A DNA stretch of 64,000 nucleotides, from positions 434,001-498,000 of the forward strand of contig CBFDEM010000001.1 in assembly GCA_965603825.1 (NCBI GenBank), read 5' to 3'. This document shows, in pieces, positions 8,014-47,200 of this stretch. Source of the stretch: Blepharisma stoltei ATCC 30299 (Eukaryota > Protista > Ciliophora). How positions within the stretch are numbered: the first letter of the stretch is position 1; every line of letters starts with the position of its first letter. A program made the translations under genes and the position numbers. The notes beneath the pieces are model-generated. The model had not been told where the DNA came from. It saw nothing but the letters and a program-made list of their open reading frames with translations, and did not search any database.

Positions 8014-9475
8014 ATGGAAAACAAGCCTATTGAAACTAGATCCAGATCGAGTGGGGTTTTACCATCTCGATCAACAATTTTGAGGGAGTTTAATATGTTT
8101 AATAAAGCTAGACTTGAAGAAAGGAAAAAAAATGTATTAAATACAAGTGCATTGAATAAATCTGTGGTTTTCAAAAGGAAAGAATTCTATACACCTAATA
8201 TATCTCCTAGGCTCCTAAATAAAACGCAAATTGGCATAAGAAATGTTGAAACTCCTAATAGGTTAAATCAGTCACAAAACGTAAATCTTCCAATAAAAGA
8301 AACTTCTTTAAGGGGAAATAACGACCCACATGCATTTGCAAGAGCAATTCATCTTGAACCTAAACTAACAAATAATTCGCATTTATCGTTACAAAATAAA
8401 CAAAGGAAAGAAAAAATTAAAATTTATGAAGAAAGTTCTGTAGTTGAGCTCCCCTCAGTCAACAAGTCTAAAAGAAAAGCTATAAAAGAGGCTGTTTCAA
8501 GAAATCAGAGTCCTTTATCTAATTCAGTACCTGAGATAAGGCAGGTTAATATAGCATCAAAAATTCCTGTAAGATGTGCATATTTAACGAAAACAGGGGT
8601 TTCTGCAGGAAAAACAAAAGCTAATAATCAAGATGCGTTTATTTTGAAATATAAATTTGGACAAGTTTTTAATCAAATTTTATTAGGAGTTTTAGATGGT
8701 CATGGCATCGAAGGACATCTTGTGTCAAATTTCATTAAAAGGGTTCTGCCGATAGAAATAGAAAGCAACAGTCCTCCAGAAGGTAAAATTTTATATAGTT
8801 ATCACAAATAGCCATATCCCAACAGAAGAGCTGCATTCCAAGCTAAAAGAAAGCATTACTAAAGGCTTTTTAGCTGCAAATGTTGATTTAAGCCAAAATA
8901 AAACGATAGATTCCAAATTTTCTGGGACCACTGTAAATTTAGTTTTAATCAGAGGAAAATTTTGCATATGCGCCAATGCTGGAGACTCACGAGCCATTAT
9001 AGGAAGATATGAAAATAATCGATGAACGCCAATTCCATTATCAAACGACCATAAACCAGAAGTAGAAAGCGAAAGAATTAGAATAGAGAAATATGGAGGA
9101 AGGGTAGAACCTTATAGTGAAATTGCTGGACAATTTTTGGGCCCTCAAAGAGTATGATTGAAAAATTCACAAATTCCTGGACTTGCTATGACAAGGTCTT
9201 TAGGTGATTTTATAGCTTCACAGGTCGGGGTAATCCCAGATCCTGAAATAAAAATCCATGAAATGACGAAAAGTGATAAGTTTATAGTGCTTGCGACTGA
9301 TGGAGTATGAGAATTTGTATCTAATGAAGAGTGTGTCAATTTGGTAGGAAGATTTTATAGAGAAGGAATTCCAGAGTCAGCTTGCAATGCGTTGATGGAG
9401 AGAGCGTTGAATTATTGGAAAAATATCGATCAAGTTGTAGATGATATTACTATAATTGTAGCGTATATAAAATAA
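8014..9475 (+). CDS. Protein phosphatase 2C with long N-terminal extension
   Basis: NQDAF, DGHG, 16-nt intron 8783-8798, SGTT, ANAGDSR, DHKP, RV(TGA)L, GLAMTRSLGD, ATDGV(TGA)EF, DDIT; TAA at 9473-9475. Confidence 0.92.
8783..8798 (+). other. 16-nt spliceosomal intron
   Basis: GTAAAATTTTATATAG; removal is required to join the two halves of the PP2C domain in frame. Confidence 0.9.
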
Positions 9476-21820: not shown

Positions 21821-21958
21821 ATGCTAAATAATTATTTAAAATATAGGAAAATTTATGATTATATGCAAGAGATTAAATTAAATATTAATTAATTCTCTTT
21901 TCAATGTTTTATAATTTAATTAATATAGAATTATTGTAGATATTTTTTTGAAAATAAA

Positions 21959-23062
21959 TTAAGAATTCTTATAAAGATCATTATAGATAGATCTTGCCTC
22001 TTCTATTGTAAACTTAGGATAATTTTTACTAATCTCTGAGTAAGCCAACTGAATAATATTTTTTTCATCAAATGTATCTATTAAAGCCTCAAAGACAGTT
22101 ATAGCGACTTTATATGCTGATTGCTTTTCTATCATTTGATCTATTTTTCTACTTGATGACGTAAAACGATTTATGATTGCATATAACTCGTCTATTATTG
22201 CGTTATGAGCATCTGTAATTTCAGAGTGCTGACTATTTATTGTTATTCTGCTCCGACATTCCTTGATTTTTTCAATGTGCTTTTCTATAGGAGCAATTAG
22301 TTCAGAATTCGATTCAATTGATCTTGTAAAAGAATCAATAATTCTTATCATCGAATCAATTTGCTCTCTTTCAATGATTTTGGCTTGATTTATTCAATTT
22401 TCAATATAAGCTTTTGACTTCAAAAGGTTATCTATTTTTTCTTGGCAATCGCTTTCATTTAGTTTTTTAAAGGCATTGTTGAGATCATAAATTGAATATA
22501 AAGATACGATAAATAGCAAAGGTAACTTCAAGTTATCTTGGCCTGAAAGCGTGAATATTTTAAGCATCCCAAGGCTTAAAAGCATTCTAATTGATGTAGA
22601 AGATGAAATATAATTTTTCCCTATTTGGTAGTTATAATCCAACTGATATTGTTCGTCAAAATAGGCATTTCGACTTATATAATTTCTATTTAACGGTGGT
22701 AATTGAAACTCAAAGAGGTACTCTGGGAAAGATTCTGATTCATCATTATTGTAGATTGTTGTAAAAGATTTCAAACTTAATATGCTTCTATCTACTGCTC
22801 TTATATTATTTGATAGGCCATTTAGAGAAATCTCTATGAGGTTTAACTTTGCACCTAAGTCTTTGAGCATTGAATTATTTTTTTCAATGCGACCTTGAAG
22901 GTTTTTTGCTTCTTTCCAATAATTTTTTGATGTAGTCAATTCCTTTTCAATTTGAGAATTTTTAGCCTGGATTATAGAATTTGCATGCTTTTCTATGAGC
23001 ATACTTGCTGAAAACATTGACAAATTGAATACAAGTGCAGCTGCTCCAAAGTATTCTTCCAT
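21959..23062 (-). CDS. Cassette gene X (copy A): orphan coiled-coil protein with two hydrophobic segments (367 aa)
   Basis: ORFs 22394..23062 and 21959..22351 join through TGA=W at 22394; paralog at 27270-28422. Confidence 0.8.
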
Positions 23063-23126
23063 TTTAAAATTATAGAATTGACTTTATTTTTCTTAACATT
23101 CTAAAATAAGAGTAATTTAGTTGTTA

Positions 23127-24128
23127 TTATGAATATTTTTTCAATTCATCTTCAGAAATTCCTTTTCTTTTTAAAAAGTCGATCATCTTTTCATATGAAA
23201 TATCCCCAGATTTATAAAGACTATCCATACACCTAATTAAAATTTTTTTTTTACTTTTTTCTTCTTCAGTTTCCCTTCTTGGCTTCTGAGATTTTATCTC
23301 GCTGATAAGTTTTTCCGCATTTTCGAAGAATTTCGTTTCATGAACTCCAGGGAGAATATTATTTATTGAGCGAGTAATATTTTGATCTATATTTATGATT
23401 TCTTTATCACATTTTTCAATTTCTATATTTACTCTAGATATATATTCTTCAAAAGCATGCAAATTATCTAATAAATATTTTTCTTTTCTATCAAAATCAT
23501 CATAGCTTAAAAGAATCTCTTTACCCAATTGAAGAACAATAAAAAAATTAAACCCTCTGCTAATTCGCATGGATCATGATGGAAGTAATTTAAAAACATC
23601 AATTAGATAAAAAGATGAAGTAAGGATTGCAAAAACTTCATCTATGCAGCTCAAGTATTTGAAAAATGAAGTTTTATCTTGTAAAGGAATTTTAGGAAAA
23701 TCCATCTTTGAAAAAGAAGCTTGTGAACAATTTTCCTCTTTTTCTATTCTATTTAATTGAAGTGCTTTAATTTCAATAATACGCTTTCTAATTTTGTTGA
23801 ATTTTTTAATTCTTTCATTTAATATTTTATGACGATTCTTGAAGTAGCTTACACGATTTTTCAAAATTTTTTCTTTATTTTGAAGATTTTTCTCCAAAAT
23901 ATCAAGGTTTGAGTAGCACTTTTCACTTATTCAGCTTTGAACTTTCAAGTTACGATCATCGAGGTACTTCTTCAAGCCCTTTATTTTGCCGGAAAAATAA
24001 AAAAAAGACAATACATTTGAAATCTCCAAAATCGTTTTGCATGTAAAAGTACAAACTTTAGAGCAACCCTTGACCACAAGCTCAGCAGCCTTCTTCACAG
24101 AATGCTTAATGAACCCAAATATTCCCAT
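23127..24128 (-). CDS. Cassette gene Y (copy A): orphan coiled-coil protein with hydrophobic segments (333 aa)
   Basis: Three ORF-track pieces share one frame via TGA at 23931 and 23574; both TGA positions are conserved in the paralog. Confidence 0.8.
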
Positions 24129-24327
24129 TCTACAAAAATATAAATAAAAATGGCTTATAAAATTAAAGCAATCGAGACTTAAATATTACCATTCTGAAAA
24201 TATTTAAATTTAAATGGCTCAAATAAATCTCATATTTAAAAATTGTTATTAAAGAATGACTGATATAAAATAGATAAATTAAGGCTCTCTGAATTATCAT
24301 AATTAATCCAGAGTAGCTTGAATACGT

Positions 24328-25602
24328 TTAGTGAGCATCCCCAGTGCGAGTTTCTTGGTCTATCTCTTCTAGAGTTTCTTTAATTAAATTCAAAGTGATT
24401 GAAGGATAGTCACTGCGAGAGACTTCGTAAATTCTATTTATTAATGTTGCATCGCTTTCTGATTTATTATGCGAGGCTCTAATCGCGAAAGCAATCAATT
24501 TTTTAAGATCTTTATTGCCTTTATATGCTAAATAAATACTCTTAACACCTTCGAGAGTCAATGTGCTGTATGATTTTTTTGCTTCCTCATAAACTTTACG
24601 TATTAATTTTTCACTATCATCAATTACCTCCTCCATGAAACTAATAATAATTGTAATTGAGCGTTCCATTAATACTTGATCTCTTTTTTGATAGCTGTTC
24701 TTGACCATATCAGTGACTAAATTAATGATATGATATATCTTATAATAAACTGGAGCCGAAATCTTAATCTCTTCATCAGCATCCAAAATTTCTAATAATT
24801 CTTCTTTTACAGTTTTAAATTCATTTTCCAAAGTTAATAAGTCTATTATTCTTTGAGAATTATTTTCATAAATCTCGTAAAAATTATTTGCTAGTTCTTT
24901 TAGTTTGTCAGTTAAGCTGTCGCTATCTTTTTTAAGCGTGCTGACTGCTTCTTCTAATTCCAACTTTCTTTTTTTAGCCTCATTGAGCAATCTTTCACTT
25001 TCTTCTTCTTGTTTTTGTGCTTTAGATATTGCATCGTAGGAGTGATAAATATCATAGAGAGCCATTCCAATGCTCCAACCGCATTTAAAACCTTTTCGTA
25101 AAGTTACATTTTTCGTATCATAATGTCCATTCCTTACTTTTTTACTGTAAGAGGATCCACGTTTCACTAGGTTTACAGCTCTAAACGCATAATCAGTTGA
25201 TGAGTTTAGTAGCTGGCTCATGCTTATAGTTTCAGGATTTGAATAATTTCCTCTCATTTTTTGGGTATTTGGGCACACAATCGTAGAATCATTGAACTCT
25301 TGTGCATCAAGATGATCTTTTAATTGTGAAATAATGATTTCTATCTTAGCTCTTAATTCCTTGAGCATACTTTTTTTATTCTTAATTTTTGATTTTTCTG
25401 ATTTAAACCTTTTAATTAAGCTATTGATGGGCTCTTCAAGTTCTTGAAGCTTATTAAAATTTTTTTGGGTGCCACTCTCCCAGCATAGAGTTGACAAATT
25501 TGATATACCAGCTACGACTCCAATAGCCTCTGCAGCTAGTGTTGCACATTTCACATACATCATTTTTATTATCAAATCTACAAAATTTAGTAAAATTATC
25601 AT
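24328..25602 (-). CDS. Cassette gene Z (copy A): orphan coiled-coil protein with duplicated C-terminal helical repeat (424 aa)
   Basis: Uninterrupted ORF; paralog at 29691-30968. Confidence 0.82.
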   Translation of the reverse strand: MIILLNFVDLIIKMMYVKCATLAAEAIGVVAGISNLSTLCWESGTQKNFNKLQELEEPINSLIKRFKSEKSKIKNKKSMLKELRAKIEIIISQLKDHLDAQEFNDSTIVCPNTQKMRGNYSNPETISMSQLLNSSTDYAFRAVNLVKRGSSYSKKVRNGHYDTKNVTLRKGFKCGWSIGMALYDIYHSYDAISKAQKQEEESERLLNEAKKRKLELEEAVSTLKKDSDSLTDKLKELANNFYEIYENNSQRIIDLLTLENEFKTVKEELLEILDADEEIKISAPVYYKIYHIINLVTDMVKNSYQKRDQVLMERSITIIISFMEEVIDDSEKLIRKVYEEAKKSYSTLTLEGVKSIYLAYKGNKDLKKLIAFAIRASHNKSESDATLINRIYEVSRSDYPSITLNLIKETLEEIDQETRTGDAH

Positions 25603-27269
25603 TACAAAATTTATAGAATCCTATTTAAAATGAAATGCAAATTTATATTTATATATAGTTGGTTTAATGCTACACTTTTATAAAGTCGAAAAACAGTATT
25701 TTGGCACTCTGGCTTATCAAACAAAGAAAGATTTTATTATATAATTTTTCTAAGAAATTTTACGTTTTTTAACTTTTTATCTGTTCGCTGGCATTTAGTT
25801 GGATTTCTTGAACATTAATTAATGTGAGGATATCTGAAGCTCTGCCTCGCAAGCATTCCAATCATCTAAAATAAATAGATTATTTTATCACATAATGCCA
25901 GGCTTGCTGTTTGCCTTTAGATATGAATTGCGGATAACTATTTAGAATGGTGTGTTGATATTTATTAGAGAGCGGCATTCAAGCAAATATTGAGTTATGT
26001 GCTTGTTTTGTATGCAAAAGCAGCACGTGAACCATTTTTAAAGAGATCATTTGCTGCATCATTATGGATTGCGCAAATTGAGTTGAATGACTAAATGCAA
26101 GGTTTGGTAACGATTTCAGCTGCAGTTTTTGAGAGGAGTTTTATAATCTAATATTCCATGCTCTAAGAGTTTAAATTTGATAAGTTAGGATATTTATGAT
26201 ATAGATTTCTTATTCTATAATTACTTTACAGGGAAATCTTTTGAATTTTTATGCAACGCTAAGGCATATTTGACTAGAATAGATCTGTGTTTGTGATGAT
26301 ACGATATGAGTAGAGAATGATTGCAAACATTCGTTATTAATCAGGATTATGGGCCTGATTGCGAATAAAATAATAAAGCTTTTTTGTAAAATAGTGACAT
26401 AAAGTTATGGCCTAGGCATTCAGTTCAGTGAAGAAATTGTCTGTACAAATGCCAGCAAGAAAGTCTTGATAAATATTGTTTAAAAACTAAAACTGATCAG
26501 AGTTTACAAATATTTTATGTATAAAAATTAAATTTGTCAAACATATTTAGCGACCCAAATTGTGGCATATGAAGAGATGCTTCACAAAAAGACATAATAT
26601 TTTTCATATATTTTTTTTAAAGTTTTACTAGATAAATGCATCACAAACATCGCACAAAACCAAGACACTATATGACGAACTCTCAGCATAAAATTCATCC
26701 AAGACTAGAATTATTTACATCTCGCTATTATAATAAAAGCATTTTGAAGAGCATTTGTATCACAAACCCAATAAAAGCATTGATAGTGATACTTAATCAA
26801 CTAATTTCTCACATCATACATCATTCAAGGATGTTAAATTCATGCAAATTTAGTTTGAAATGAATTTTAACCACTTTTATGCATTGGTTTGCCGCTTAAG
26901 CAAGCATCAATACAATGTATTTTATAGATCATTGCAGCTACATACAAAAAAGAAACGGAGAATCATGCGGCGCATAAATTATAGATGCCAACTCACAACC
27001 AAATGCTCAAAAGCATTTTTCGCTATTTCAGCATACCCCTGTAACGATAATCCGACTCAGTATTACTACTTGAAATCAATTTAATTAGATAGATCGATTA
27101 ATATAGCAGCCTATAATAGTTCGGCTAATTTCAAAGGGGCTAATTTTCTTTTTAAAAATTTTCTCTAACTACTAATTATCAAAATAGTCTATTGGGAAGC
27201 TCAATCTCTTTTCATAGTTTTATATTTAATTAATGTGGAATTAGTATAGATATTTTTTTTGAAAATAAA

Positions 27270-28422
27270 TTAAGAATTCTTATAAAGATCATTATAGATA
27301 GATCTTGCCTCTTTTATTGTAAACTTAGGGTAATTTTTTCTAATCTCTGAGTAAGCCAACTCAATAATATTTTTTTCATCAAATGCTTCTTTTAAAGCCT
27401 CAAAGACTCTTATAGTAGCTTTATATGCTGATTGCTTTTCTATCATTTGATCTATTTTTCTACTTGATGACATAAAACGATTTATGATTGCATATAACTC
27501 GTCTATTATTGCGCTATGAGCGTCTGTAATTTCAGAGTGCTGACTATTTATTTTTATTCTGCTCCGACATTCCTTGATTTTCAATGTGCTTTTGTATAGG
27601 AGCAATTAGTTCTGAATTCGATTCAATTGATCTTGTAAAAGAATCAATAATTCTTTCCATCGAATCAATTTGCTCTCTTTCAATAATTTTGGCTTCATTT
27701 ATTCAATCCTCAATATAAGCTTTTGACCTCAAAAGCTTATCTATTTTTTCTTGGCAATTTCTTTCATTTAGTTTTTTTAGGCTATTGCTTAAATCATAAA
27801 TTGAATATAGAAATTGCCCGAGGATGGCACAAAATAGTGCCATCCTCGGGCAATTATATAAAACTTTTATAAGGTGTAAAGGAAATGTCCAGATATTTTG
27901 GTGTGAAAGCAAGAATATTTTAAGCATTCCAAGGCTTAAAAGTATTCTAATTAATTTATATAATCCAATATAAATTTTTTCTATTTGATAGTTATATTCA
28001 ACCTGATATTGTTCGTCAAAATGGGCATTTCGACTTCTATAATTTCTCTCTAAAGGGGGTAATTGAAACTCAAAGAGGTACTCTGGGAAAGATTCTGATT
28101 CATCATTATTGTAGATCGTTGTAAAAGATTTCAATCTTAGCATGCTTCTATCTACTACCCTTATATTATTTGATAGGCCATTTAGGGAAATCTCTATGAG
28201 GTTTAACTTTTCACCTAAGTCTTTGAGCATTGAATTATTTTTCTCAATACGACCTTGGAGATTTTTTGCTTCTTTCCAATAATTTTTCGATGTAGTCAAT
28301 TCCTTATCAATTTGAGAATTTTTAGCCTTGATTTTAGATTTTGCATGCTTCTCTATGAGCTTACTTGTTAAAAAAATTGACAAATTGATTGCAAGTCCAG
28401 CTTTTCAAAAGTTATATCCCAT
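27270..28422 (-). pseudogene. Cassette gene X' (copy B), frameshifted
   Basis: The T-run at 27578-27581 is 4 nt versus 6 nt in copy A, giving a premature TAG at 27544-27546. Sequence past the shift is still near-identical to X. Could be a homopolymer assembly error. Confidence 0.6.
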
Positions 28423-28470
28423 TTTAAAATTATAGAATTCACTTTATTTTTCTTAAATTTCTAAAATAAT

Positions 28471-29496
28471 TTAGTTGTTATTATGAATTTTTTTCAATTC
28501 ATCCTCAGAAATTCCCCTTCTCTTTAAAGCGATGCTCATCTTTTCATATGAAATTGTCCCAGATTTATAACGACTAACCACACAATCAATAAAAGATTTT
28601 TTAATTTTTTCTTCTTCTTTTTCTTTTTCTTCTTCTTCTATTTCGCTTATTGGCTTCCGAGATTTTAGTTCGCTGATCATTTTTTCTGAAACTTCGAAAA
28701 ATTTCGTTTCATCAACTCCAGGAAAAGCATTATTTATTTCTTGTAAAATATTTCTATTTATATTAGAGATTTCTGAATCACATTTTTTAATTTCATCATT
28801 CACTTTTAATATATATTCATCAAAAGCTTTCAAATTATCCAATAAATATTTTTCTTTTCTGTTAAAATCATCATAGCTTAAAAGAACTTCTATGCCCATT
28901 TGAAGAACAAGCAAACCTCCGCCAATTCACATGGATCATAATAATGAAAATAATGAAAATAATTCACCAACAAAATCAACTATATAAATAGCTGTAGAAA
29001 GAATTGCCGGAACTTTATCTATATTGCTCAAGCATTTGAAAAATTGAGTTTGATCTTGTAAAGGCAATTTAGAAAATTCCATCACTGAATAAGAAGCTTG
29101 CGAATAATTTTCCTTTCTTTCTGTTTTATTTCATTGAAGTTGTTGAATTTCCTCAATACGGTTTATAATTTCGTTGAGTTTTTCAATTCTTTCATTTAAT
29201 TTTCCGCAACGATCCTTGAGATCGTTTTTATGATTTTCAAGAATTTTTTCTTTATCCTGAAGGCTTTTTTCCAAATTATCAAATCTTGAGTATAGATTTC
29301 CACTTATTCAGCTTTTGAATTCCAAGTCACGATCTTCAAGCCACTTCATCAAGCCCGTTTTTTTACCGGAAGAATAAAATAAATATATCGAATTACAAAT
29401 AGTCAAAATCTTTGTGAATGCACTAAATAAAGCTTTGCCCACACTCTTAGTAGCACTCAGCAGTTGATGCTTAATGAACTCTCATATTTTTTCCAT
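28471..29496 (-). CDS. Cassette gene Y' (copy B, 341 aa)
   Basis: ATG at 29496 (MEKI[TGA]EFIKH); open to TAA at 28471 with five TGA=W. Confidence 0.78.
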
Positions 29497-29690
29497 TCTA
29501 CAAATATTTATATAAAAATGGTTTATAGAATCAAAGAAATCGACACTTCAATTCTATAAATATTAAAAATAAAAATCGATTAAATATCTCTAATATATAG
29601 CAAAATTATGATTAAAGAATGACTTATAAAATTAGATAAATCAAGGCTCTCTGAATTATGATAATCAATCCAGAGTAAGTTGAAATACGT

Positions 29691-30968
29691 TTATTGAGCA
29701 TCCCTAATGCAATTTGCTTGTTTTATCTCTTCTAGAGTTTCTCTAATTAAACTCAAAGTAATTAAAGGATAATCTCTGCGAGAGCCTTGGTAAATTCTAT
29801 TTATTAATTCTTCATCGCTTTCTGATTTATTATGCGTATTTCTCATCATGGAAGCAATTATTTCTTTAAGCTCTTTGCTTCTTTTGTATTCTAAATAAAC
29901 ACGCTCAACAACTTCAAAAGTCAATGTGCTATAAGATTCTTTTGATTTATCATAAACTTCATGGATTAATTCTTCGCTATCATCAATTAAATCCTCCAAG
30001 TAACTGATAATTTTTTTAATTGAACTTTCCATTAATGCTTGATCTCATTGTTGATAGCTGGCCTTGACCATATCAATGACAGAATTAATAATATGATATA
30101 TTTTAGAATAAACTGAATTCGAAATTCTAAGCTCTTCTCCAGCATGCACAATTTCTAATACTTCTTCTTTTACAGCTCTAAATTCATTTTCCAAAGGTAA
30201 TAAGTCTGTTATTGTCTTAGCATTTTTTTCATAAATCTCATAAAAATTATTTGCTAGCTTTTTTAAATTGTCAGTTAAGCTATCGCTAACTTTTTTAAGC
30301 ATGTTGACTGCTTCTTCTAATTCCTCCTTTCTTTTTATAGCCTCTGTGAGCAATCTTTCACTTTCTTCTTTCTTGTTTTTTGCTTTAGATATTGTATCGT
30401 AGGAGTCATAAATATTATAGAGAGCCATTCCAATGCTCCAACCGCATTTAAAACCTTTTCATAAAGTTACATCTTTGACATCATAATGTCCATTTGTTGC
30501 TTTTTCAAAGTAAAAAAATCCACGTTTTAACTGGCTTGGGAATCCTTTAAGTACAGCCTCAGTCGAAATGCTTAATAGATTTCTCGTGCTTATAGTTTCA
30601 GGATTTGAATAATTTCCTCTCATTGTTTGGGTGTTTAAATTCATTTTATTGGAATTCGCTAACTTTTGCATATCAAGATGATCTTCTAAATGTGAAATGA
30701 TGATTTCCATCTTACCTCTTAATCCCTTGTGCATTCTTATTTTATTCTCAATTTTTGATTTTTCTGATTCAAGCCTTTTAATTAAGTTATTGATGGTCTC
30801 TTCAAGTTTTTCAAGCTTATTAAAATTTTCTTTGGTGTCACTATCCCAGACGAGGGTTGCAAAATTGGATAAGCTAGCTACCATTCCAATAGCATCTGCA
30901 GCTATTCTTGCACCTTTCACATAAATCATTTTTATTATCAATTCTACAAAATTTAGTAAAATTATCAT
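29691..30968 (-). CDS. Cassette gene Z' (copy B, 425 aa)
   Basis: Three ORF pieces join via TGA at 30459 and 30045; colinear with Z. Confidence 0.78.
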
Positions 30969-32328
30969 TATAACATATTTATAGAATCGATTTTAAATGA
31001 AATGCAAATTTATATTTATATATAGTTGATTTAATGCTCCACTTTTATAAAGTCGAAAAACAGTGCTTTTTAGCACTTTGGCTTACCGAGAAAAGAAAGA
31101 TCTTATTATATACTAATTTTTCTAAGAAAAGTCCAGTATTTTTAATTTCTTATCTGTTCGCTGGCACTTAGCTGGATTTTCTTAAACGTTAATTAATATG
31201 AGGATATCTGAAGCTCTACCTCAAAATAATTCCAATTATCGAAAATTAATAGATTATTTTATCAAATGATGCCATCCATGCTTACCTGCTGATATCTATT
31301 TACCTTTTAGATATGAATTGCGGATAACTATTTAGAATAGTGTGTTGATATTTAATTGTAGAGCGACATTAGGCAAAATATTGAATTATGTGCTTGTTTG
31401 GTATGTGAAAGCAACACATGGACATTTTTAAAGGGTCATTACTGCATCGTTATGGATTGCGCAAAATTGAGTTGAATGACTATAATGCAAGGTTTGGTAG
31501 CAATTTTAGCTGCAATTTTGAGAGGAGTTCTATAATCTAATAATCCATACTCTAAAAGTTTAAATTTGACTAGGCAGGATATTAATGCTATAGATTTTTC
31601 ATTCTATAATTACTTTAAAGGGAAATCTTTTGAATTTTTATGCAACACTGAGGCATATTTGACTAGAATAGATCTGTGTTTGTGATGATACTATAGGAGT
31701 AGAGAATGATGGCAAACATTCGTTATTAAGTGGCAATTATGGCCTGGTTGCAACTAATTATTATAAAGCTTTTTTTATAATAATTACATAAAGTTATGGC
31801 CTAGGCATTCGGTTCAGTGAAGAGACAGTCCGTACTAATGCCAGCAAGAAAGTCTTTAAAATCTTGTCAAAAAATTAAAACCGATCATATTTACCAAATG
31901 AAAATTAATTTGTCAAACATATTCAGCGAGCCAAATTTTATTTTAAAATGCATCTGGCATTCAAAAGATGCTTCAAAAGACATAGTATTTCATGTGAATT
32001 TTTATTAGAGTTTTATAAGATAATGCACCACAAGCATCACAATTGCGTGCCACGAAACCAAAATACAATATCACGCAGCTCTCAGCATAAATTTCAGCCA
32101 AAACTACAATTATTTACCTATATAAAATTAATAAAATTAATATGAATTTAAATTATCATTCTTGCAAAGAAAATAGAAATCAGCTTTCAGATTTATTATG
32201 TATAATCGTAAAATATTGTTGCATGCTTTATAGAAATCTAAATAAGTAAATAGATTTCAAATGTTTTCTAACAAAATTTATCAAATAAATCATAAAATAC
32301 CAAAATATCTGAACTTAATATCGTAAAA

Positions 32329-34491
32329 TTAATTTAAACGATTTAAATATTTTTGTATCGTCTCAATAATCACTTCAGAACTACAAGGCTTAACCAAGCA
32401 CTCTGTCATTCCACTTTCATAGCATTTTTTCACATCATCACTTGAACTAAATGCCGAATATCCAATAATCCACGGCACTCTCCTCAATCTCCCTCCTTCA
32501 TACTTCTCATGAATAACCTTAGTCGCTTCTCACCCATCTAGCTCTGGCATACTGCAGTCCATAATAACAACATAATACGGCTTATCTTTATTATCCATAG
32601 TCATCACACATTCTACCGCTTCTTTTCCATTGCAAGCTTCATTATATAAAATCTCATTTCTCGTCAGCAGTGAGCCAAGAATAATCCTATTAAAATCATT
32701 ATCATCCACAATTAGTACCTTTGGGTATCTATTTCTTATATCATTATATGTAAAAAACTGAATGACTTTTAGAGGCTGCTTTTCTTCTTCAATTGTATAA
32801 TCAGAGTCTTCTTCTTGAAAAGAGGACGGGGAGTTATTGGAATCAAACGCATTTATTGCAAAAGAAAATGTTGAGCCTTTACCAGGCTGTGAAGAAACAT
32901 TAATGCATGTCCCTTCAAGTTCTTTTACAATGCGATTTGTTATGTGAAGGCCTAGTCCACAGCCTTGAGGATTAATATTGGCAGTGTTTGAAGTGCTGAA
33001 TTCTTCAAATAGCTTCAAAAGTTTATCATCAGGGATGCCAATTCCTGTGTCATTTACAACTAATTTCAATTGTTCTTCAGCTGTCATCAGACAACAGATC
33101 TCGATTGAGCCTTTCATGGTGAATTTCAAAGCGTTACTTAGTAAGTTTAAGATAGCTTGGCTAAGTCTCAAAGGGTCTGTATAAACTCATTCAGGTAAAT
33201 CTGGATCAAATCTTAAATTCAACTCTAAGTTTTTTTTTTGAGCTTGAAGTTTTATAAGGTCGCTTGTACTGGAAACCAGCTCTCTTATGCGAAATTTTGA
33301 CTTTTGGATACTAAATACCCCAGCAAGCATTCTGGAATAGTCTAATAAATCATTAACTAAGGAAAGAAGCAGCTTAGAAGAAACCAGAATCATTTCAATT
33401 TTCTTGATTTGGCATTCATCAATAACAATTCTTAATTCTTCCAGCAATTCCTTCGCTAAAAATAATATCGCATTAATAGGGGTTCTTAGTTCATGAGACA
33501 CCGATCTCAATAAAACCGTCTTAATCTTGTTTTCTGCATTAGTTTGCTCAAGTTGAATAATTTGATTAGCATTTTTTGCATATATAATTAATGCTACTTT
33601 TTTATTTTCCCACAAAATTTTTGTCGCTTTTCACTCAATATTGATGTCCCTCTCCATCGAAATCCCTAGCATCACTTCATGGTTAAATTCATAATTAAAA
33701 ATAAATTGAATATCATCAATTAGCCTATTTGAATTTGTTAAAGTCGAATATTTTTTATCTTTTGTATATTCTATATCTTGAAGCAAAGAAATTACTTCTT
33801 CTTTAGAGCAAGAAAGTAGTCTTAGAATATTGGGGTTAAAATATTCAATTTTATTTGGTCTTGAAATTACTAGAATTCCATCAGGGCATCCATTGATTAC
33901 GATACCTAGTCTGCTTTCGGCTTTCTCTAATTCTTTCCAATATATGAACCTCTCTTGAGAAGCCCGCAAGCGAAGGTAAGAAATCAAGTTAAAAATGATG
34001 AAAATATAGAGAATTGTCATGTAAATAGAAAGATTTTGTATATAATTCAAATTTTCTGGAAAAGAGTTTATATAGTATCAAAGCACTATATGTCGTCCAT
34101 ATATTAGATTTTTAAGCCAGATTTGTTGAATAAATGGTAGCTCTAGGTGTTTCACGATTAAGCAGGCTAGCATTTCAAAAAGGATTTTATGTTCTATGCT
34201 GAAAAATAAAGAATGATAAAAAAGTGCTAAGCTTGCCAGCTCTGCGTATAATAAAGACGAAATTGCTTTATAAATGGCTTTCTTGTTTTTTAGAAATTTT
34301 ACAATTAAAAAGGTCATTGTGTGAATCCCTATAAAAGGGGCTACAAAGACTGGGAAAGTTTTGTCATAAAACAAAAAGCTGAGAGACCAGACTAGCAGAA
34401 TAATAGCCATAGAGAGGTAGATATACTTCTTTAAAATTTGAAAAGTCTCATTCACCTCTTCTTCCCACCAACTATTTTGGAAATCAGTCAT
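32329..34491 (-). CDS. Membrane hybrid histidine kinase (TM-PAS-like-HisKA-HATPase-receiver, 720 aa)
   Basis: One frame through TGA at 34078, 33631, 33187 and 32530. H-box SVSHELRTP, N-box NLLSNALKFT, DTGIGI, GCGLGL; receiver VDDN, IMDCSMPELDG[W], KP. Confidence 0.92.
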
Positions 34492-39803: not shown

Positions 39804-42800
39804 TTAGTCATGAACTTTCATTTCTTTCATAAGAATTGATTTTGTGATAGGTTGTTTTGATTGTTTATCTTTTTTCAATTTTTTGTAAAAACAAATAACT
39901 GCTATTGCAATTAATAAGATTGCAAGTACCGCAAAAGTAAAAATTCATCATGCATAATCACCTTCTTCTACTGGCTCTTGTCTTTTTATCTTTAAAAGAG
40001 TTGAACGTATTGATCCATTTTCGTTATTTACTGTGACAAAAATATCAAAAGCATTACTTCCTCATTCATTAATCATAGAATAATATTGATTTTTACTCAA
40101 CTTTTTAATAGTAAGTACACTTGGGTTGATCCGAAAAGTTTTGAAATTGTCATTAACACTTTCAAGTGCGATAAATGTATTTGCATTAATAAATATAACT
40201 CTACCAAGATAGTTCATTGAATGAATATTTGATAGATAAACATTTGAGACTATTGAGGAGACTTTGCTTGTATTTAAATCTCAAACCCTTATATAGTTGC
40301 TATCGCTGAGCATCTTTAAAAATGAGACAACGTACTGTAGGTTATCAGAGCATATAAGCTCACTTACTTGAGTAATAAATTCAATAAAAACAGAGCTATA
40401 AGAATTATATAAAGCCTCGAGATTTAGTTCAGTGAAATTACTGATTAAATATTTTTTCAAGTTGCTCTCCTCATCAATAGTAAAAAGAAAATCTCCACAT
40501 ATACCTAGCGTGCCAATGTAGTTTAATTCATTTTCAATTTTTATATTTTTTATGACTTTGGATGAGTTTCTTTGGCTAGTCTCAACTATTTTAATATTTG
40601 AGGGATGCTCTCCAAAATATCAATATACTTGATCGTCATTTTTTACCTTAAAGTCCATGAAATACGGAGAAAATGATACCAGAGATAAAGTAAAAAAATT
40701 AATTTTCTCAGTAAGAGTTAAAGTCAATTCAGTTATGTCCCAAATTCCTCTTACTCTTATTAAGTTTTTATTTTCGATACTTATTGAATCATAATCATTT
40801 TTAAATAGAGTCATTATTTCAAATAATGAGTCGTTAATTGTTGCAAGTTTAAGGTGAAAAATATCATAGTCAATAGGCATTTCTTTTAGTCTAATAATTT
40901 TGAAATTTATTGTGTCTAATTCAAAAATTATTAATGAGTAAAGTGAATATTTGTTGATGGATATCCAGCCAGATTGGGGTATTTCTTCTTCAAAAGTGTA
41001 AATGCATGATACCGAAATAAGTAATAGCCCATTTTTCATGTATTTAAAATTATCCATATGCTTGCAAATGGGATTTTGATACTTAGTATATTTATCAATT
41101 TTTATATTTCATGAGGCTACATAGTTCGCTGAATTTATCACCGTAAACCCTTCATCTGATAAAATTATTGAAAAGTTTGTATTCGGGATCATCATATAGT
41201 CATAGATAATGAGTCCATCTTTTGTATGATATTCACTAATTTTTTCTACTCTCTCTGCTATTTCAGCTGGACTTATCATTTTATTTTGATTTTTTTCGTC
41301 GAGTCCATTTATATTTAAAGAAAAATTCAAATTTTGCCCAAAAAATACTTGACTTAAGTCAACCTCAAAGGTTTCATCATAGCTTATTTCATTCGGTATT
41401 TGCCAATATGTAGATTTAAAGCGAGGATAAAATCCATTGGAATTTAAATTCAATGGTACGTCAATTGTTTTAATATCAAATTCATTATATGCAATTATTG
41501 ATATCAATATCGAATACTCGCTCTCAGTTAATAAGTGCGGTTGGACTGCTGTAATCATAACTTTGCCAACAGTTTTGCATTTATATAAATTGTTTTCAGA
41601 ATTGTTTTCACATGCCACTTGGTACATATCATACATTTTTTGGCCCTCTTGTTCATAGGCTATGCATATTGTATTTGGCCAATATTGTATATCAATAGAA
41701 ATGACATCTGATTTTCCAAGTTTTTTAATAAAAAATAGTGAATTTAAGGTAGGTTCAGAGAAATCATATATCAGTAAATAATCAGCAATATGAAGATAAA
41801 GTAAATTATAAGTTGCACATGCTTGGATGACATTTCCTGTAATAAAAGTTTTTAAAGTTTTATTAAGAGTTGTTGGATATGTATAAATATCAACAGATTC
41901 TTGGTTGATTAAATATATGAAAGTTTCTGAAGCAACAATTTTTTGAAAATGTTTTAGTAATTTTACAAGACTAATATAATAAGTTGCATCAACTATATAT
42001 ATATCTGTAATCGATATTATAATAATTTCATTTTCTTGATTAAGAATATAGATATAGTGTCATTTAAAAAATGTGATATCTGTAATATTTCATGGCTTTT
42101 CATGAATTAATGAGGCATCAAATGAGGCAAACTTTACTATTTGAATTTCGTTGCAATAATATAAGTTTACTTGACTGGAATTAGCACATAGAAATAAATT
42201 ATTTCAAGATTTGAAGAATAAGCACTCTATATCTGATATAAAGCTATCAAAAGTCAGAAATTCACCATTTATAGCTAAAATGCTGTACTGTTTTATCGAA
42301 GGCTCAAAATATATAATTTGATAGTTATAGCAAGTCAAAACTTTCTTGGGATTTTTTATATTTATTGCAAATTCTCTAAAATTTCTAATTAGACCAAAAA
42401 TGGACTCATCATAAAAATAAATTTCCCATCCATTTTCAATTTGGACATCTCTAACACTGCTAGAAATAGTTTTTGTCTCAAGGTAGTGCAATTTTTCAAT
42501 TGGATATGCTTCAATAGTAAGATAGTCTACGTATGGCTCTTTAACAATAAAATTCAGATTTTGGCCTGAAAAATAATCGGTTGGATAAAGATAAATTGAT
42601 CTATTATTTCTTCATTCATAAAGAGAAAAATTTATAGGCACTACAGAGCTAGGCTTGTACTCATTAATATAATAAATCTCTTTTGAATTCTCAGGAAGAG
42701 AAATTACATTCATAGTAGATGATAATGACGACATCTTTGATGATAGCTCTGTTGCTTCAATATTAAGAGTATGGTTTGAATCTCCCCAAATTGTTAGTGT

Positions 42801-44072
42801 CCATTCTTCAATGACCATAAGAAATATTCTTATTCCATCTTTATCTCTCCTTACGTAATATATATTCTTAGTTATCTGATCTTCAAAAATACCAACTGTT
42901 CCATGCATTTCAAAATCTTTTCCAATTTTTTCTTTTAAATCAATATCTGATAATCTATATTTTGAAGTAGAGCCAGATATTATTGATAAGATTGATGAAG
43001 CCTGAGCAATATAGTATTCTTTGGTTTGTTGAAATAAACTAAAAGACAAATATTTTCCATGAATTTCTATATTTGGTATCATTTCAATTATTCGACTTGG
43101 GCTTTCCACAATAAAAATTCCTGCTTTTGTGTTTATATATATATACTTATTTTTAGATTCAATGGCAATTCATGGTACAATAAAAGGGCTTAAATATTCT
43201 AGGCTGATAAATCCTTGCTCTCTGAAAAGCCCATCTTTCAATAATAATCTTTTAAAAAATATTATCCCTATGTTGGCATCAATAACGGTAAAAAATCAAT
43301 TTTCTCTCATTAAAACGTCTAAAACCTTCATATTTTTGTCTGGGAAAAGTCTGTATTTGTTTATCTTTTGTAAAAGTATAGGGTTATATATTTTTTCAAT
43401 ATTATAAATGTTGAGAGTATTGACATTATCTATTTCAAAATAAATAGGCAAGCAATATGCTATAGATCCAGAGCCTATTATGATTTTTGAGGAATATGTT
43501 ATTTCACTTATATTTACTCATAATGGATATTCATTTATAAGATTTACCAGGTTAAGCACATAAATATCATTCCTTCATATCAATTTTTCATCAAAATTCT
43601 CTTGCTGCCTGACATGTATTAGCAGATAGTAAAAAATATATGAAGGTGTAATCAATCTAATGTCCTCTATATATGTGTTCTTGTACTGATTTTCGATTTT
43701 ATAATTGTATACCACAGTATAATTTTGGAAAAGAAATGAAAATTTGTAAATAATTATTTCATTTTGGAAAAAATCTGCTATTAACTCATCACCGTTTTGA
43801 TTTCATATTAAAAATTGCTTATCTTGAGCTTTATATGTTTGATTTAAATTCGGAATAAAAGCAAAAAGCTGCAAGTCAAATTTGCTATTCAATTCTGGTT
43901 TTTTATTTAATGTGTTTGAACCAGAAAGTGAGAAAGTTAAATTATTTCCTTCAAAATAACGTGATAGTGGGAACTCTACAAATTCTCCATTTGTCAAATA
44001 TATATCTCCAAAGTTTTCCAAAAGATTCAATGATGAAGCCAAGGATCAAAGGAGTCAATAAATTTTCCACAT
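39804..44072 (-). CDS. Large beta-rich type I membrane surface protein (~1422 aa), paralog 1
   Basis: ATG at 44072 with signal peptide; all ORF pieces are in one frame; three L-S-x-YF-x-G-x-NL-type modules; C-terminal TM YA[TGA][TGA]IFTFAVLAILLIAIAVICFYKK. Not every linker was checked codon by codon. Confidence 0.78.
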
Positions 44073-44202
44073 TAAAATTATAAAATCAACAAAAATGATT
44101 TTTCGAAAAAATCCTAATAAAATTTTTATCATATATCGCTCTCAGCATTATTTAATTAATAATCTAATAAATTAGAAAATTATTTTTAAGATTTATAACT
44201 CT

Positions 44203-47200
44203 TTATTTTAATCTAAATGAATTAGTTTTCTCCTTCTTTTCTATAGGCATCCTTCTAAAACTTATGACTGTAGAATTGGCTTGGCTATCTTTATTTTTAG
44301 CTGTCAAAAAAACATCAAATGCATTTGTTCCTCATTCTTCAATCATTTCATTATATTCACTTTCATTTAATTTTGGAATGTATAGCATAATAGGATTTAT
44401 TTGAATAGCCAAAAATTTATGTTTACGAACAACAAAAAAAGTGTTTAAATTCATAAATTTCACCTCATTTATTTCTGAAAGCACAGCATCATTATTTATC
44501 TCAATATCGTGCACGTGAGAAGAAGAAGGATCTGCTGAAGTATCAATTATTCGAACTGATAAACCTATGCCATTAAATAAGTATAAAGCTACATATTTTC
44601 CATCTGCTGAGCAAGCTACTCTTGAATATGATGAAGTTAATATATGGTTTAAATAGTATTCCTCTATTAATGCTAACTCAGAATAGTTTTTTATTGAGTA
44701 TTTTTTGAGGGATTCATCAGCGATATATAAATAGTTACCACAAACTCCTATTGAGGTAAAAAATTTTAACGATTTTATAGGAAATCCTGTGATAATTTCT
44801 AAATTATTTTCATGTGCTTTTAAAACTCTTAAGCCGTATGCCACGTCTAGTATATATCAATAAGCTGTTTGTGAATCCGCAGCAATTCCATCAAAAATGC
44901 ATGAACGAAAGCTAGGTAATTTTAAGGAGGCAGAGCTGATTATTTCTACTTGTTGGAGCTTTATATCTCCCAATATTCATGAGCCTCGAAATCTTAATAT
45001 TTTCTTTTCGAAATTTATATTTGTGTAAGACTCTGACACCAAAATTTCGAAATTTGTATTATCTAAAGTAAGAGTTTTTAAGTTTACTGGGCGATATCCT
45101 AAAGGGAGCGATTTATATGATTTTATTGCAAATAAACTATAGTCAAATTCCCATAAGATTAATAGTTTTTTCATACTAAATATGCCAGTATCATTAAGTG
45201 AATAAACTTTATGCTCACAAGTTGTCACAATAAGCGTATGAGAGTTTTTAGTATGCTCAAAATTGTCAATCAAACTACATTTTAAGCTATCAGCATTAAA
45301 AATTTCTGATAGATTAAGAGAAATGCCTTCGCTATTATTTTTCGTAATTTGCGTAAGAATTAAAGCTCCATCTGATGTAATGACTTGGATATCAGCTCCA
45401 GATATCAGAATATAGTGACACAAGATACCAGAAGAATTATAATGCCCAGTAATTTCAGTCCTTTTGTTTACATAAGCTGGAGCTAGAATTCCATTTTGAT
45501 TATCGACATATCTATCATTTACATTAAGAGCCATCTCAATCTCTTGTCCATTAAAAAGATTACTTAAATCGATTTCATAGTGATCATTATAATCAATCTC
45601 TTTTTTAATGCTTAACTGGCTGTTTTCATTATATCAAATAAAAGCTCCATTTACAATTAAATTCAGATTTAAATCAATACTTGACTTAGAGTATTCATTA
45701 TATGCTATAACCGAAAAATCTTCTTGGTAAATCTGATCAATCAATTTTTCAGGAGATTTAGCTGAAATTGATACTTTAGCCGATTGCTTTTGAATATCAA
45801 AGATTCTATACATTTCATAATACTTTTCTTCACAAGCAGGATAATATATCATAAATTCAAAAGCCAAATTAAATAAATTAGCTTTGCTAGTATCTATAGT
45901 TGAAAAGTAGCTGTTTTTTTCTAATTTCATCTCTAAAAATAAAGCATTATGAACGGGCATATCGATATTGTAAATAAGTAGTGTTTCATCAAACTGTATA
46001 TAAAGATAATTATTAGCTAAAGAGGTATGCAATACATTCAAATTTTTTTCGCATTGAAAGGTTTTCACATAATTCAAAGGATAATCAAAAACATTTACAG
46101 TCCCATTTTTTCTAACCATATATTAAAGACTTTTGAAAAGATTTTGGATAAATAAAAATTTCATTTAAATTCCATTGAAATCCTTCTTTGAAGTTTTCTC
46201 CTGCTAAAGTAATTCATTTTTTAGAGCTGTAGTCTAAAGCTAAATAAATATCAATTCGCTTTCGATCAGAACATACAAAAAACATGAAATTAATATCATG
46301 CTTAAAAATAGAGCATTCTGTTTCAGACTCCCAAGTTTCTATAGCTGAATAATCCTTTAACATATAAGATGATATCATAGGAATAGACTCTTGAGTTTTC
46401 CAATATATTCATGCATATTTCTCCGTGCTGACAATATTGATTGGCTTGGTGATATTTCAAATTTCTTCTCTTGTTATTTCTATATAGTCTTTGTAGTAGT
46501 GAATTATTGAAGCATCTTTGTACTCGACTCATAAAGTTTCTTTAGGAACTGTAACTCTTTTATACAGCTCAACTTTATTTGGAATACTGATATTATATGA
46601 AAATAGAGCAGAATTAGAAGGTTCTATCGTGTAGCTTAAATTTGGACCTGAAAAATAAGATCTAAGCGGAAACATTATTTCTTTGCAGTGTGCATCAAAA
46701 ATTAAAGAAATAGGCTCAACTATTGCTGGCCTATAATTACTAATGGGAATTATATTTTTAGATCCAAGTGGGATTGAAAATATGTTTAGAGAATTCGATA
46801 TAGAAGAATCATTTTCTTTAGCTGTTATTACAGCTTTGAAATTTGAATTTCCTGTAATTTTCAGTTTAAAAGGTTCAAAATTTAGAGAGAACTGTCTTAG
46901 CCCATCAATATCACTTCTCACGTAAAAAATTTCATCATCAGGAAAATTATTTATAATCATTCACATGCCTCTGGGATTATAAGTATTCCCAATTAAATTA
47001 TCTATGTTTATATCTATTAGCGTTTCCAGTGGGCTGTTTATATCTATAATCGATAAAATAGATTCGTTTTTATGGACATAGCTTGCCATAAAATAATCAT
47101 CATATAATTGAGAAAACAATGTCTCATATTTTATTTCATTATTTTCTCTGTTTGGAATTCATCTTTTTACGTCTCCTCCCATATGAATTAAAATACTACC

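What the first reader, a model, noticed from the sequence alone, without database searches (positions are those of the whole stretch)
21891..32117. Tandemly duplicated three-gene cassette of related orphan coiled-coil/hydrophobic proteins: candidate tripartite membrane-active or recognition system
Seen: three co-oriented genes (Z 424 aa, Y 333 aa, X 367 aa; gaps about 200 and 64 bp) are duplicated as one unit with their upstream DNA. All three share a layout: hydrophobic/amphipathic N-terminal helix, coiled coil, central hydrophobic segment ending in a similar motif (X SLYSIYDLNNAF, Z ALYDIYHSYDAI, Y GKEILLSYDDF), second coiled coil, small C-terminal helical domain. X and Z are recognisably ancient paralogs (SMLKDLGAKLNLI vs SMLKELRAKIEII; ELYAIINRFT vs KIYHIINLVT); Y is more distant (FPKIPL vs FQLPPL). 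Established: three adjacent, distantly related ~35-45 kDa helical-bundle proteins with a hydrophobic hairpin is how ClyA-family tripartite pore-forming toxins (Hbl/Nhe, AhlABC) are organised, and APOL proteins are also clustered and fast-evolving. Inference only: a co-regulated hetero-oligomeric pore, toxin/antidote or self-recognition module. I recognise no direct sequence homology.
Basis: partly seen in the sequence, partly recalled or inferred. Interest (0 to 1): 0.85.

Follow-up and report, generated by a model that had tools for sequence, protein, structure and literature searches.

The report
Hypervariable three-gene cassette in a ciliate
A ciliate carries a duplicated block of three genes with no relatives found elsewhere, and the block differs sharply in sequence and likely in copy number between isolates, which would fit a recognition, defence or incompatibility locus; the proposed three-part pore toxin remains untested.

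Summary
The duplicated Z-Y-X block is real (82% identity) and lies in a heterotrich ciliate genome (TGA=Trp). X and Z are paralogs. Y shows no detectable homology to them, and Z has no hydrophobic centre, so the claim that all three share one layout fails. No homologs were found outside the window. No significant ClyA/Hbl, APOL or HeLo match came from Pfam or fold searches, but the models are weak (pLDDT 66 and 44). The new result is evolutionary. Between copies dN/dS is about 1 in Y and Z, yet the reading frames stay open. Run X8 carries a Y1 allele 9% divergent (flank 0.4%), with its hydrophobic segment under 90% alike, and a junction that skips copy 2. X2 is frameshifted and holds an in-frame 51-nt TA-bounded palindrome that is a high-copy dispersed element. 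Best reading (0.4): a hyper-divergent, copy-variable conflict locus, with Y likely membrane-inserting and X/Z its partners. Relaxed birth-and-death evolution (0.27) and a ClyA-like tripartite pore (0.15) remain open. The pore idea gains one point: hydrophobicity runs none/long/short in gene order, as in AhlABC.

The parts
21894..26718 (.). Copy 1 of the duplicated unit (X1, Y1, Z1, about 1.1 kb upstream DNA)
   Evidence: blastn self-match, 81.7% over 4981 columns
27205..32117 (.). Copy 2 of the duplicated unit; likely absent from one haplotype of run X8
   Evidence: joint 27197->32131 in one X8 contig, depth 61.9, 25-letter side, letters between not known
21959..23062 (-). X1, 367 aa, intact; paralog of Z; hydrophobic N-terminus, two moderately hydrophobic segments (152-198), one C-terminal helical module
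   Evidence: Atlas model pLDDT 0.70, no structural match above TM 0.27 by query
23127..24128 (-). Y1, 333 aa, intact; amphipathic N-terminus, long helices either side of a hydrophobic stretch (165-207), C-terminal three-helix module; most variable gene
   Evidence: weak Pex14_N match to the last 47 aa, E 0.002, below the curated cut-off
23546..23632 (-). Y1 residues 166-195, the hydrophobic segment; same length but too diverged to lay at 90% in run X8
   Evidence: table 5; residues mapped
24328..25602 (-). Z1, 424 aa as called (411 aa from the likelier ATG at 25563), intact; two long helices joined by a poorly modelled linker, two tandem three-helix modules (about 295-352 and 352-406)
25030..25196 (-). 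Z1 residues 123-178, replaced by 33 unrelated letters in a half-depth variant of run X1 (would shift the frame)
   Evidence: tables 5 and 5c (depth 113.8 vs about 231)
25603..26718 (.). Duplicated upstream DNA, no open frame, indel-rich; homolog at 30969-32117
   Evidence: (no Pfam hit below E 0.2 in 12 frames)
26719..27204 (.). Single-copy spacer between the two units
   Evidence: covered by exact contigs of the four RNA? runs
27270..28422 (-). X2, broken: ORF 28422-27544 (292 aa), 2-nt deletion near 27577; the rest of the X-like sequence lies in another frame to 27270
   Evidence: one contig of run X10 has the two letters present
27806..27857 (.). TA-bounded palindromic insertion in X2 (51 nt net, in frame, 19-bp stem, 6-nt loop); high-copy dispersed element
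   Evidence: bin depth 886/2012/7366/627 vs 28-266 in the neighbouring bins, many unlike flanks at both ends, bridged without difference by an X1 contig at depth 189
28471..29496 (-). Y2, 341 aa, intact here; 59% identical to Y1; a 2-nt deletion at 28757 in one X8 contig
29691..30968 (-). Z2, 425 aa as called (412 from 30929), intact; 64% identical to Z1

Best explanation
This is a duplicated block of three orphan helical-protein genes with strongly diverged alleles that is likely kept diverse by a biological conflict (defence, self/non-self recognition or a selfish incompatibility), with Y predicted to insert its variable hydrophobic hairpin into a membrane and the paralogs X and Z likely acting as its matched binding partners. 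Shown: the duplication; X-Z paralogy; open frames despite near-neutral amino-acid change; a narrow peak of allelic divergence over Y. Inferred: a functional copy is needed but its sequence is free or driven to change; matched Z-Y-X alleles travel as a block; spare copies decay (X2 here, Y2 in run X8). Untested: any physical contact, membrane insertion, expression and the opponent. About 0.5 for a conflict-driven locus; about 0.2 for the specific Y-effector / X,Z-partner wiring.
For: Between copies the coding DNA differs as much as or more than non-coding DNA: Y 222/977, Z 216/1233, X 108/1099, upstream 175/1134; Y exceeds upstream, p=2e-5. dN/dS: Z 0.97 (0.71-1.34), Y 1.09 (0.83-1.59), X N-part 0.67 (0.41-1.11). 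Frames are nevertheless kept: 7 of 9 coding indels are in frame vs 6 of 23 non-coding (p=0.015); a neutral lineage would stay stop-free with P=0.002 (Z) and 0.006 (Y). Run X8 differs by 2/471 in the left flank, 8/337 in X1, 61/653 over Y1, 33/371 over the Y-Z spacer and the Z 3' end, and 5/380 upstream. At the listed Y1 sites all laid depth shows the other letter, so no reference-type Y1 was laid there. The Y1 hydrophobic segment is bridged but diverged beyond 90%. One X8 contig joins 27197 to 32131. Y has a roughly 45-residue hydrophobic stretch between two long helices. Punctuated hyper-divergent regions enriched in pathogen-response genes are described in C. elegans (10.1101/2020.07.23.218420, abstract).
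Against: No dN/dS interval excludes 1, so positive selection is not shown; dS is also high in Y (0.26). Of 24 Y1 codons with a listed X8 variant, 17 are non-synonymous, no more than the roughly 19 expected at neutrality; X1 shows 3 of 8 (only 40 of 266 variant rows were visible). X8 is one sample, table 8 showed 6 of its 123 laid contigs, and the divergent contigs could be paralogs or conversion products (8 of 28 Y1 variant sites match Y2). The contig over Y2 differs by only 30/1184. Broken versions are frequent (X2; Y2 in X8; the Z1 variant in X1). The skip joint has only a 25-letter side. The Y model is poor (pLDDT 44.5). The 'RNA?' label of runs X9-X12 is a guess, and the spacer is covered like the genes.
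Confidence: 0.4

Rival explanations
1. Birth-and-death of young, weakly constrained lineage-specific genes: selection removes truncated products or acts only loosely, the sequence drifts, and the divergence peak reflects old duplicates plus gene conversion.
For: dN/dS about 1 in Y and Z with no significant excess; near-neutral ratio among visible X8 variants; several broken versions and a mobile insertion; no homolog in any library.
Against: Five long frames stay open over about 20% divergence. X and Z stay alignable end to end at 26% identity, so the family is old. Divergence in X8 falls to near background within 1-2 kb on both sides of Y1.
Confidence: 0.27
2. A ClyA-like tripartite pore: Z, Y and X would play the A, B and C roles and assemble a hetero-oligomeric pore against prey, predators or microbes.
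For: Three adjacent co-oriented 333-411 aa helical proteins duplicated as a unit. Hydrophobicity none/long/short in gene order, as described for AhlA/B/C, whose A and C are only 6% and 9% identical to NheA/C (PMC6602965, passages), so lack of sequence homology is not fatal. The weak Y model has long helices either side of the hydrophobic stretch.
Against: No Pfam hit to such families at E<=1. MakA appears only at E=0.89, TM 0.15, rmsd 56. Y is not detectably related to X/Z. The Z model is two very long helices plus HTH-like modules, not a five-helix tail. Y1's segment (45 aa, with several charges) is shorter than the 54-63 residues quoted for the B components.
Confidence: 0.15
3. Fast-evolving structural or trafficking proteins: X/Z would be coiled-coil adaptors with HTH-like ends (chromosome, meiosis or cortex), or SNAP-25-like two-helix proteins, and Y an unrelated neighbour copied along.
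For: Z C-terminal modules align to cullin WHB (Z 7.5-7.6, rmsd 1.9-2.6, 57-71 residues) and PerR (Z 6.6, rmsd 1.7, 51). The top wide match is a SNARE-complex chain (Z 9.2, rmsd 3.5, 121 aligned), and viral SNAP-29/t-SNARE rows appear at E 0.07-0.9.
Against: All Z-scores are within the tool's noise range for helical proteins (under 13). No SNARE Pfam hit; by eye, no conserved Gln layer. It does not explain the divergence peak on Y.
Confidence: 0.1
4. X/Z begin with a HeLo/RPW8/NLR-CC-like four-helix executor, and the locus is a cell-death module.
For: Weak matches of Z residues about 60-296 to the Rx CC domain (Z 6.7, 83 aligned, rmsd 3.4), a wheat resistosome chain (Z 6.5) and WeiTsing (Z 6.2). 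Z's N-terminus resembles HeLo-like starts (recalled, no call).
Against: Z-scores are in the noise; no HeLo, SesA or RPW8 hit for the full proteins or the first 100 residues.
Confidence: 0.06

Closest known systems
Tripartite ClyA-family alpha-pore-forming toxins (AhlABC, NheABC, Hbl, MakABE)
   Same: Three adjacent co-oriented helical proteins of similar size; hydrophobic stretch none/long/short in gene order (PMC6602965 passages).
   Different: Eukaryotic host; no profile or significant fold match; only X and Z are shown to be related; X/Z end in HTH-like three-helix modules.
Hyper-divergent haplotypes of Caenorhabditis (10.1101/2020.07.23.218420, abstract) and the toxin-antidote elements linked to them (PMC13733741, search listing)
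   Same: Narrow peak of allelic divergence, gene-content variation, lineage-specific genes.
   Different: Unrelated proteins; here one divergent sample only, no population statistics and no phenotype.
Blepharisma palindromic IESs / MITIES (10.1101/2022.05.02.489906, passages)
   Same: TA-bounded palindrome, many copies with unlike flanks, inside a coding sequence.
   Different: 51 nt, below the roughly 65-bp start of the reported IES range and far from the roughly 228-bp palindromic peak; present in this assembly, in frame.
APOL, HeLo/RPW8/MLKL and SNAP-25-like Qbc SNARE proteins
   Same: Helical proteins with hydrophobic or amphipathic segments; APOL genes are clustered and fast-evolving (recalled).
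   Different: No Pfam hit; only noise-level fold matches.

Membership tests
Tripartite ClyA-family alpha-PFT | Three adjacent co-oriented genes for roughly 35-45 kDa helical proteins | tested here: met
Tripartite ClyA-family alpha-PFT | Hydropathy pattern A none / B 54-63 residues / C 22-23 residues | tested here: inconclusive
   Order fits (Z none, Y about 45 residues, X two moderate segments), lengths and strength only partly (PMC6602965 passages)
Tripartite ClyA-family alpha-PFT | ClyA fold (five-helix tail, neck, hydrophobic head) in each component | tested here: inconclusive
   Models pLDDT 65.8 and 44.5; MakA at E 0.89, TM 0.15; X only through the Atlas model
Tripartite ClyA-family alpha-PFT | Match to the family's Pfam profiles (HBL type, PF05791) | tested here: not met
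   No such row for 6 of 6 proteins at E<=1; filters drop most matches above 0.1
Tripartite ClyA-family alpha-PFT | Hetero-oligomeric assembly and lysis needing all three | not testable with these tools
   No complex prediction or assay result is available
APOL | Apolipoprotein L profile or fold match | tested here: inconclusive
   No Pfam row; absence from the fold lists is not exclusion
HeLo/RPW8/NLR-CC four-helix executors | N-terminal four-helix bundle with profile match | tested here: inconclusive
   No Pfam row; Z 6.2-6.7 fold matches within noise
Qbc SNARE (SNAP-25-like) | Two SNARE motifs with conserved Gln zero layers | tested here: inconclusive
   Z 9.2, rmsd 3.5, 121 aligned; no Pfam row; no conserved Gln seen by eye in the alignment
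Hyper-divergent balanced haplotype | Local allelic divergence far above flanks | tested here: met
   61/653 over Y1 vs 2/471 flank, p=7e-13, one sample, allelism inferred
Hyper-divergent balanced haplotype | Population evidence of long-term balancing selection | not testable with these tools
   Only one divergent DNA sample was laid
Palindromic MITE-like IES (insertion in X2) | TA-bounded inverted repeat, many copies at unrelated sites, empty site in a homolog | tested here: met
Palindromic MITE-like IES (insertion in X2) | Excised from the somatic genome | tested here: not met
   Present in the window and bridged without difference by an X1 contig at depth 189; no 51-nt skip among the 10 joints listed

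The most novel reading that the evidence does not exclude
The first multi-gene self/non-self or selfish killer-protector locus of a heterotrich ciliate: Z, Y and X form an allele-matched membrane-permeabilising complex, convergent with bacterial tripartite pore toxins, whose specificity lies in Y's hypervariable hydrophobic hairpin, with haplotypes of one or two cassettes segregating in the species.
Probability: 0.12. Interest if true: 0.85.

Novelty: new member of a known kind. Interest (0 to 1): 0.45.

Why it matters
Defence and incompatibility genes of ciliates are poorly known (own knowledge). A narrow, copy-variable divergence peak over orphan genes is how such loci have been found in nematodes, so this gives a concrete candidate for crosses and knock-downs. 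The X2 palindrome also looks like a mobile element too short for the reported excision range that stayed in a somatic gene by being in frame. If the genes are only drifting duplicates, the locus is ordinary.

Tried and rejected
No whole genome is held, so other copies, genome-wide backgrounds and synteny in other heterotrichs could not be searched. Homolog searches found only the window's own proteins: Z1 1 hit among 7997 scored candidates, X1 2 among 2986, Y profile 2 among 7993, X/Z profile 2 of 1.84 billion representatives. Metagenome contigs: 0 of 591 candidates. PDB sequences: best E 0.062, a coiled-coil match. Atlas: no usable feature hit and TM<=0.27 by query for X1; the Y1 request did not complete four times. 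ClyA, APOL and HeLo-type chains were not among the 50 rows shown; this is no exclusion. No complex prediction was obtained, so binding is open. No run on record as RNA was listed. The four 'RNA?' runs gave no cover of 23347-24188 (most of Y1) or 31346-32187 at 93%, and X8 gave little or no cover of 24468-25209 and 31146-31887 at 90%; holes prove nothing. Loose ends at 23263-23298 lie at an A-rich stretch and were set aside. The upstream DNA as a decayed gene: no Pfam hit below E 0.2 in 12 frames; unresolved. Tiny introns in X/Y/Z: 0 candidates for one 15-nt pattern in 6 genes. A 17-nt scan for the palindrome gave 120 loci; the best match was 20 nt and all had GC>=0.46, so these are chance hits. 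Literature searches (ciliate + pore-forming + Blepharisma; ciliate + balancing selection + tandem/orphan; ciliate + hyper-divergent; ciliates + MLKL/HeLo) listed nothing on such a locus; only listings were seen and no supplements were read. Earlier scan findings: none.
Full report
Setting. The window is gene-dense, about 31% GC, reads TGA as Trp at conserved sites and has a 16-nt GT..AG intron candidate that extends a neighbouring frame from 265 to 481 aa. These features match the somatic genome described for Blepharisma (15-16 bp introns, UGA=Trp; PMC9942806, passages). I infer a heterotrich ciliate, likely Blepharisma. No whole genome was available.

Observation. Apart from a short palindrome, the window has one internal repeat, 21894-26718 vs 27205-32117, 81.7% identical, with a single-copy spacer of about 490 bp between the units. 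Each unit holds Z, Y and X on the minus strand plus about 1.1 kb of upstream DNA. Z1/Z2 are 64% identical and Y1/Y2 59%. X and Z are paralogs: 26% identity end to end, z=12.1 and 8.6 against 300 block shuffles. Y is not detectably related (z<=2.5; the 21 control pairs reach 2.7; hhalign 0.1%). The centre of Z is not hydrophobic (KD19 0.42-0.47), X1 is moderate (1.15-1.23) and Y is clearly hydrophobic (1.59-1.77). X2 is broken by a 2-nt deletion near 27577.

Homologs and folds. All sequence searches returned only the window's own proteins. Pfam gave no hit above a curated cut-off for 6 of 6 proteins or for 8 of 8 terminal pieces. The Z model (pLDDT 65.8, pTM 0.41) has helices 2-93 and 155-236, a poorly modelled linker 93-158, and further helices to 410. 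Foldseek found 0 of 427 PDB rows and 0 viral rows at E<=0.001; MakA ranks 7th at E=0.89, TM 0.15. The wide aligner's best rows are a SNARE-complex chain (Z 9.2, rmsd 3.5, 121 aligned) and designed bundles, all in the noise range for helical proteins. The most consistent local result is that residues about 295-352 and 352-406 each match three-helix HTH-like domains: cullin WHB (Z 7.5-7.6, rmsd 1.9-2.6) and PerR (Z 6.6, rmsd 1.7). A profile of Z's first module ranks Z's second module and X's C-terminus next among 165 window frames, but weakly (domain E 0.05-0.12). The Y model is poor (pLDDT 44.5) except the C-terminal 40 residues; it places long helices (69-134 and 191-258) either side of the hydrophobic stretch and gives generic hairpin matches.

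Selection between copies. Substitutions per aligned site: upstream 175/1134, Z 216/1233, Y 222/977, X 108/1099. Y exceeds and X falls below the upstream rate (p=2e-5 and 8e-5). dN/dS is 0.97 for Z, 1.09 for Y and 0.67 for the N-part of X; all intervals include 1. Frames are kept: 7 of 9 coding indels are multiples of three against 6 of 23 non-coding (p=0.015). The two exceptions are a 1-nt indel beside Y's stop and the X2 frameshift. Simulated neutral change leaves Z open in 0.2%, Y in 0.6% and X in 5.6% of 1500 runs. So selection keeps proteins but tolerates or favours amino-acid change. Positive selection is not shown.

Variation between samples. I laid 4 of the 8 DNA-type runs and 4 of the 4 'RNA?' runs listed. 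X1, X5 and X7 list no substitutions. X8 differs by 2/471 in the left flank, 8/337 in X1, 61/653 over Y1, 33/371 over the Y-Z spacer and the Z 3' end, 5/380 upstream and 30/1184 over Y2 (6 of its 123 laid contigs were shown). For scale, one B. stoltei strain is reported at 0.47% heterozygosity (PMC9942806, passages). One X8 contig bridges Y1 residues 166-195, the hydrophobic segment, at the same length but below 90% likeness; another does so for Z1 residues 363-385. One X8 contig joins 27197 to 32131 at about half the flank depth, which likely marks a haplotype without copy 2, though the short side is only 25 letters. X8's Y2-like contig has a 2-nt deletion. Run X1 holds a half-depth variant in which Z1 residues 123-178 are replaced by 33 letters. 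Of the 40 variant rows shown (of 266), Y1 has 17 non-synonymous of 24 codons and X1 3 of 8; 8 of 28 Y1 sites match Y2, so conversion contributes. Allelism of the X8 contigs is inferred from half depth and from no reference letter at the listed sites; paralogy is not excluded.

Expression. Contigs of runs guessed to be RNA match X1, Z1, X2, Y2 and Z2 with no differences at depths of about 3-14, and they stop at the ends of the flanking gene. They also cover the spacer, show no splice joints, and the label is a guess. Transcription is plausible but not shown. One X10 contig has the two letters that X2 lacks, so that break may not be fixed.

The X2 insertion. At 27806-27857 X2 has a 51-nt in-frame insertion, TA at both ends, with a 19-bp stem and a 6-nt loop; X1 has the empty site. 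Its bin has depth 886, 2012, 7366 and 627 against 28-266 beside it, with many unlike flanks ending at both borders, and an X1 contig bridges it unchanged. It is a dispersed high-copy element. Blepharisma IESs are reported as mostly TA-bound, partly palindromic and starting near 65 bp (10.1101/2022.05.02.489906, passages). I infer a MITE-like element too short to be excised, tolerated because it is in frame and adds 17 residues to the hydrophobic region.

Mechanism. Most likely (0.4): a conflict-driven locus. Y, the most variable gene, would anchor or insert through its hydrophobic hairpin and set specificity. X and Z, an old paralog pair, would bind or restrain it. The block is inherited and duplicated whole, and spare copies decay. 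Only the anatomy and the variation are shown; the wiring is inferred. Relaxed birth-and-death evolution (0.27) explains dN/dS near 1 and the broken copies, but less well the open frames, the age of X/Z and the narrow peak. The ClyA-like pore (0.15) keeps one real parallel, the none/long/short hydrophobic order reported for AhlA/B/C (PMC6602965, passages), but it has no profile or significant fold match. It should not be filed as a member, and 'works like' is untested. Structural or SNARE-like (0.10) and HeLo-like (0.06) readings rest on noise-level matches.

Verdict. A real feature with new orphan proteins, and a new instance of a known kind of locus (hyper-divergent, copy-variable gene cluster; 10.1101/2020.07.23.218420, abstract). 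My four literature searches listed no description of it; supplements were not read.

Noticed in passing
window 39804-44132, 44203-46119, 46112-48175 (minus strand): A second, much older tandem pair: the 1442-aa orphan with a C-terminal hydrophobic segment is matched at 28-30% identity by two adjacent ORFs covering its N- and C-halves (E 7e-57 and 1e-72); the upstream copy is split or interrupted. No Pfam hit for the long one.
   Followed up: partly
window 27806-27857: High-copy 51-nt palindromic element kept in frame inside X2; far more abundant in runs X5 and X7 than in X1.
   Followed up: yes
window 25030-25196: Half-depth variant in run X1 replaces this part of Z1 by 33 unrelated letters; allele or somatic rearrangement, unexplained.
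   Followed up: partly
window 21875 and 32267: Contigs of DNA run X1 run on with unlike sequence at these points (255+ letters; 21875 also in X5), hinting at related pieces elsewhere in the genome.
   Followed up: no
window 31113-31345 and 26611-27087: 'RNA?' contigs cover part of the upstream DNA (with an unlike left extension, 3 of 4 runs listed) and the spacer (4 of 4); possibly a decayed gene or non-coding transcript.
   Followed up: partly
window 32329-34491: Hybrid histidine kinase (HisKA, HATPase_c, response regulator, weak PAS) directly upstream of copy 2, same strand; no link shown.
   Followed up: no
window 8783-8798: 16-nt GT..AG intron candidate that extends the 8014 frame to 481 aa.
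   Followed up: partly
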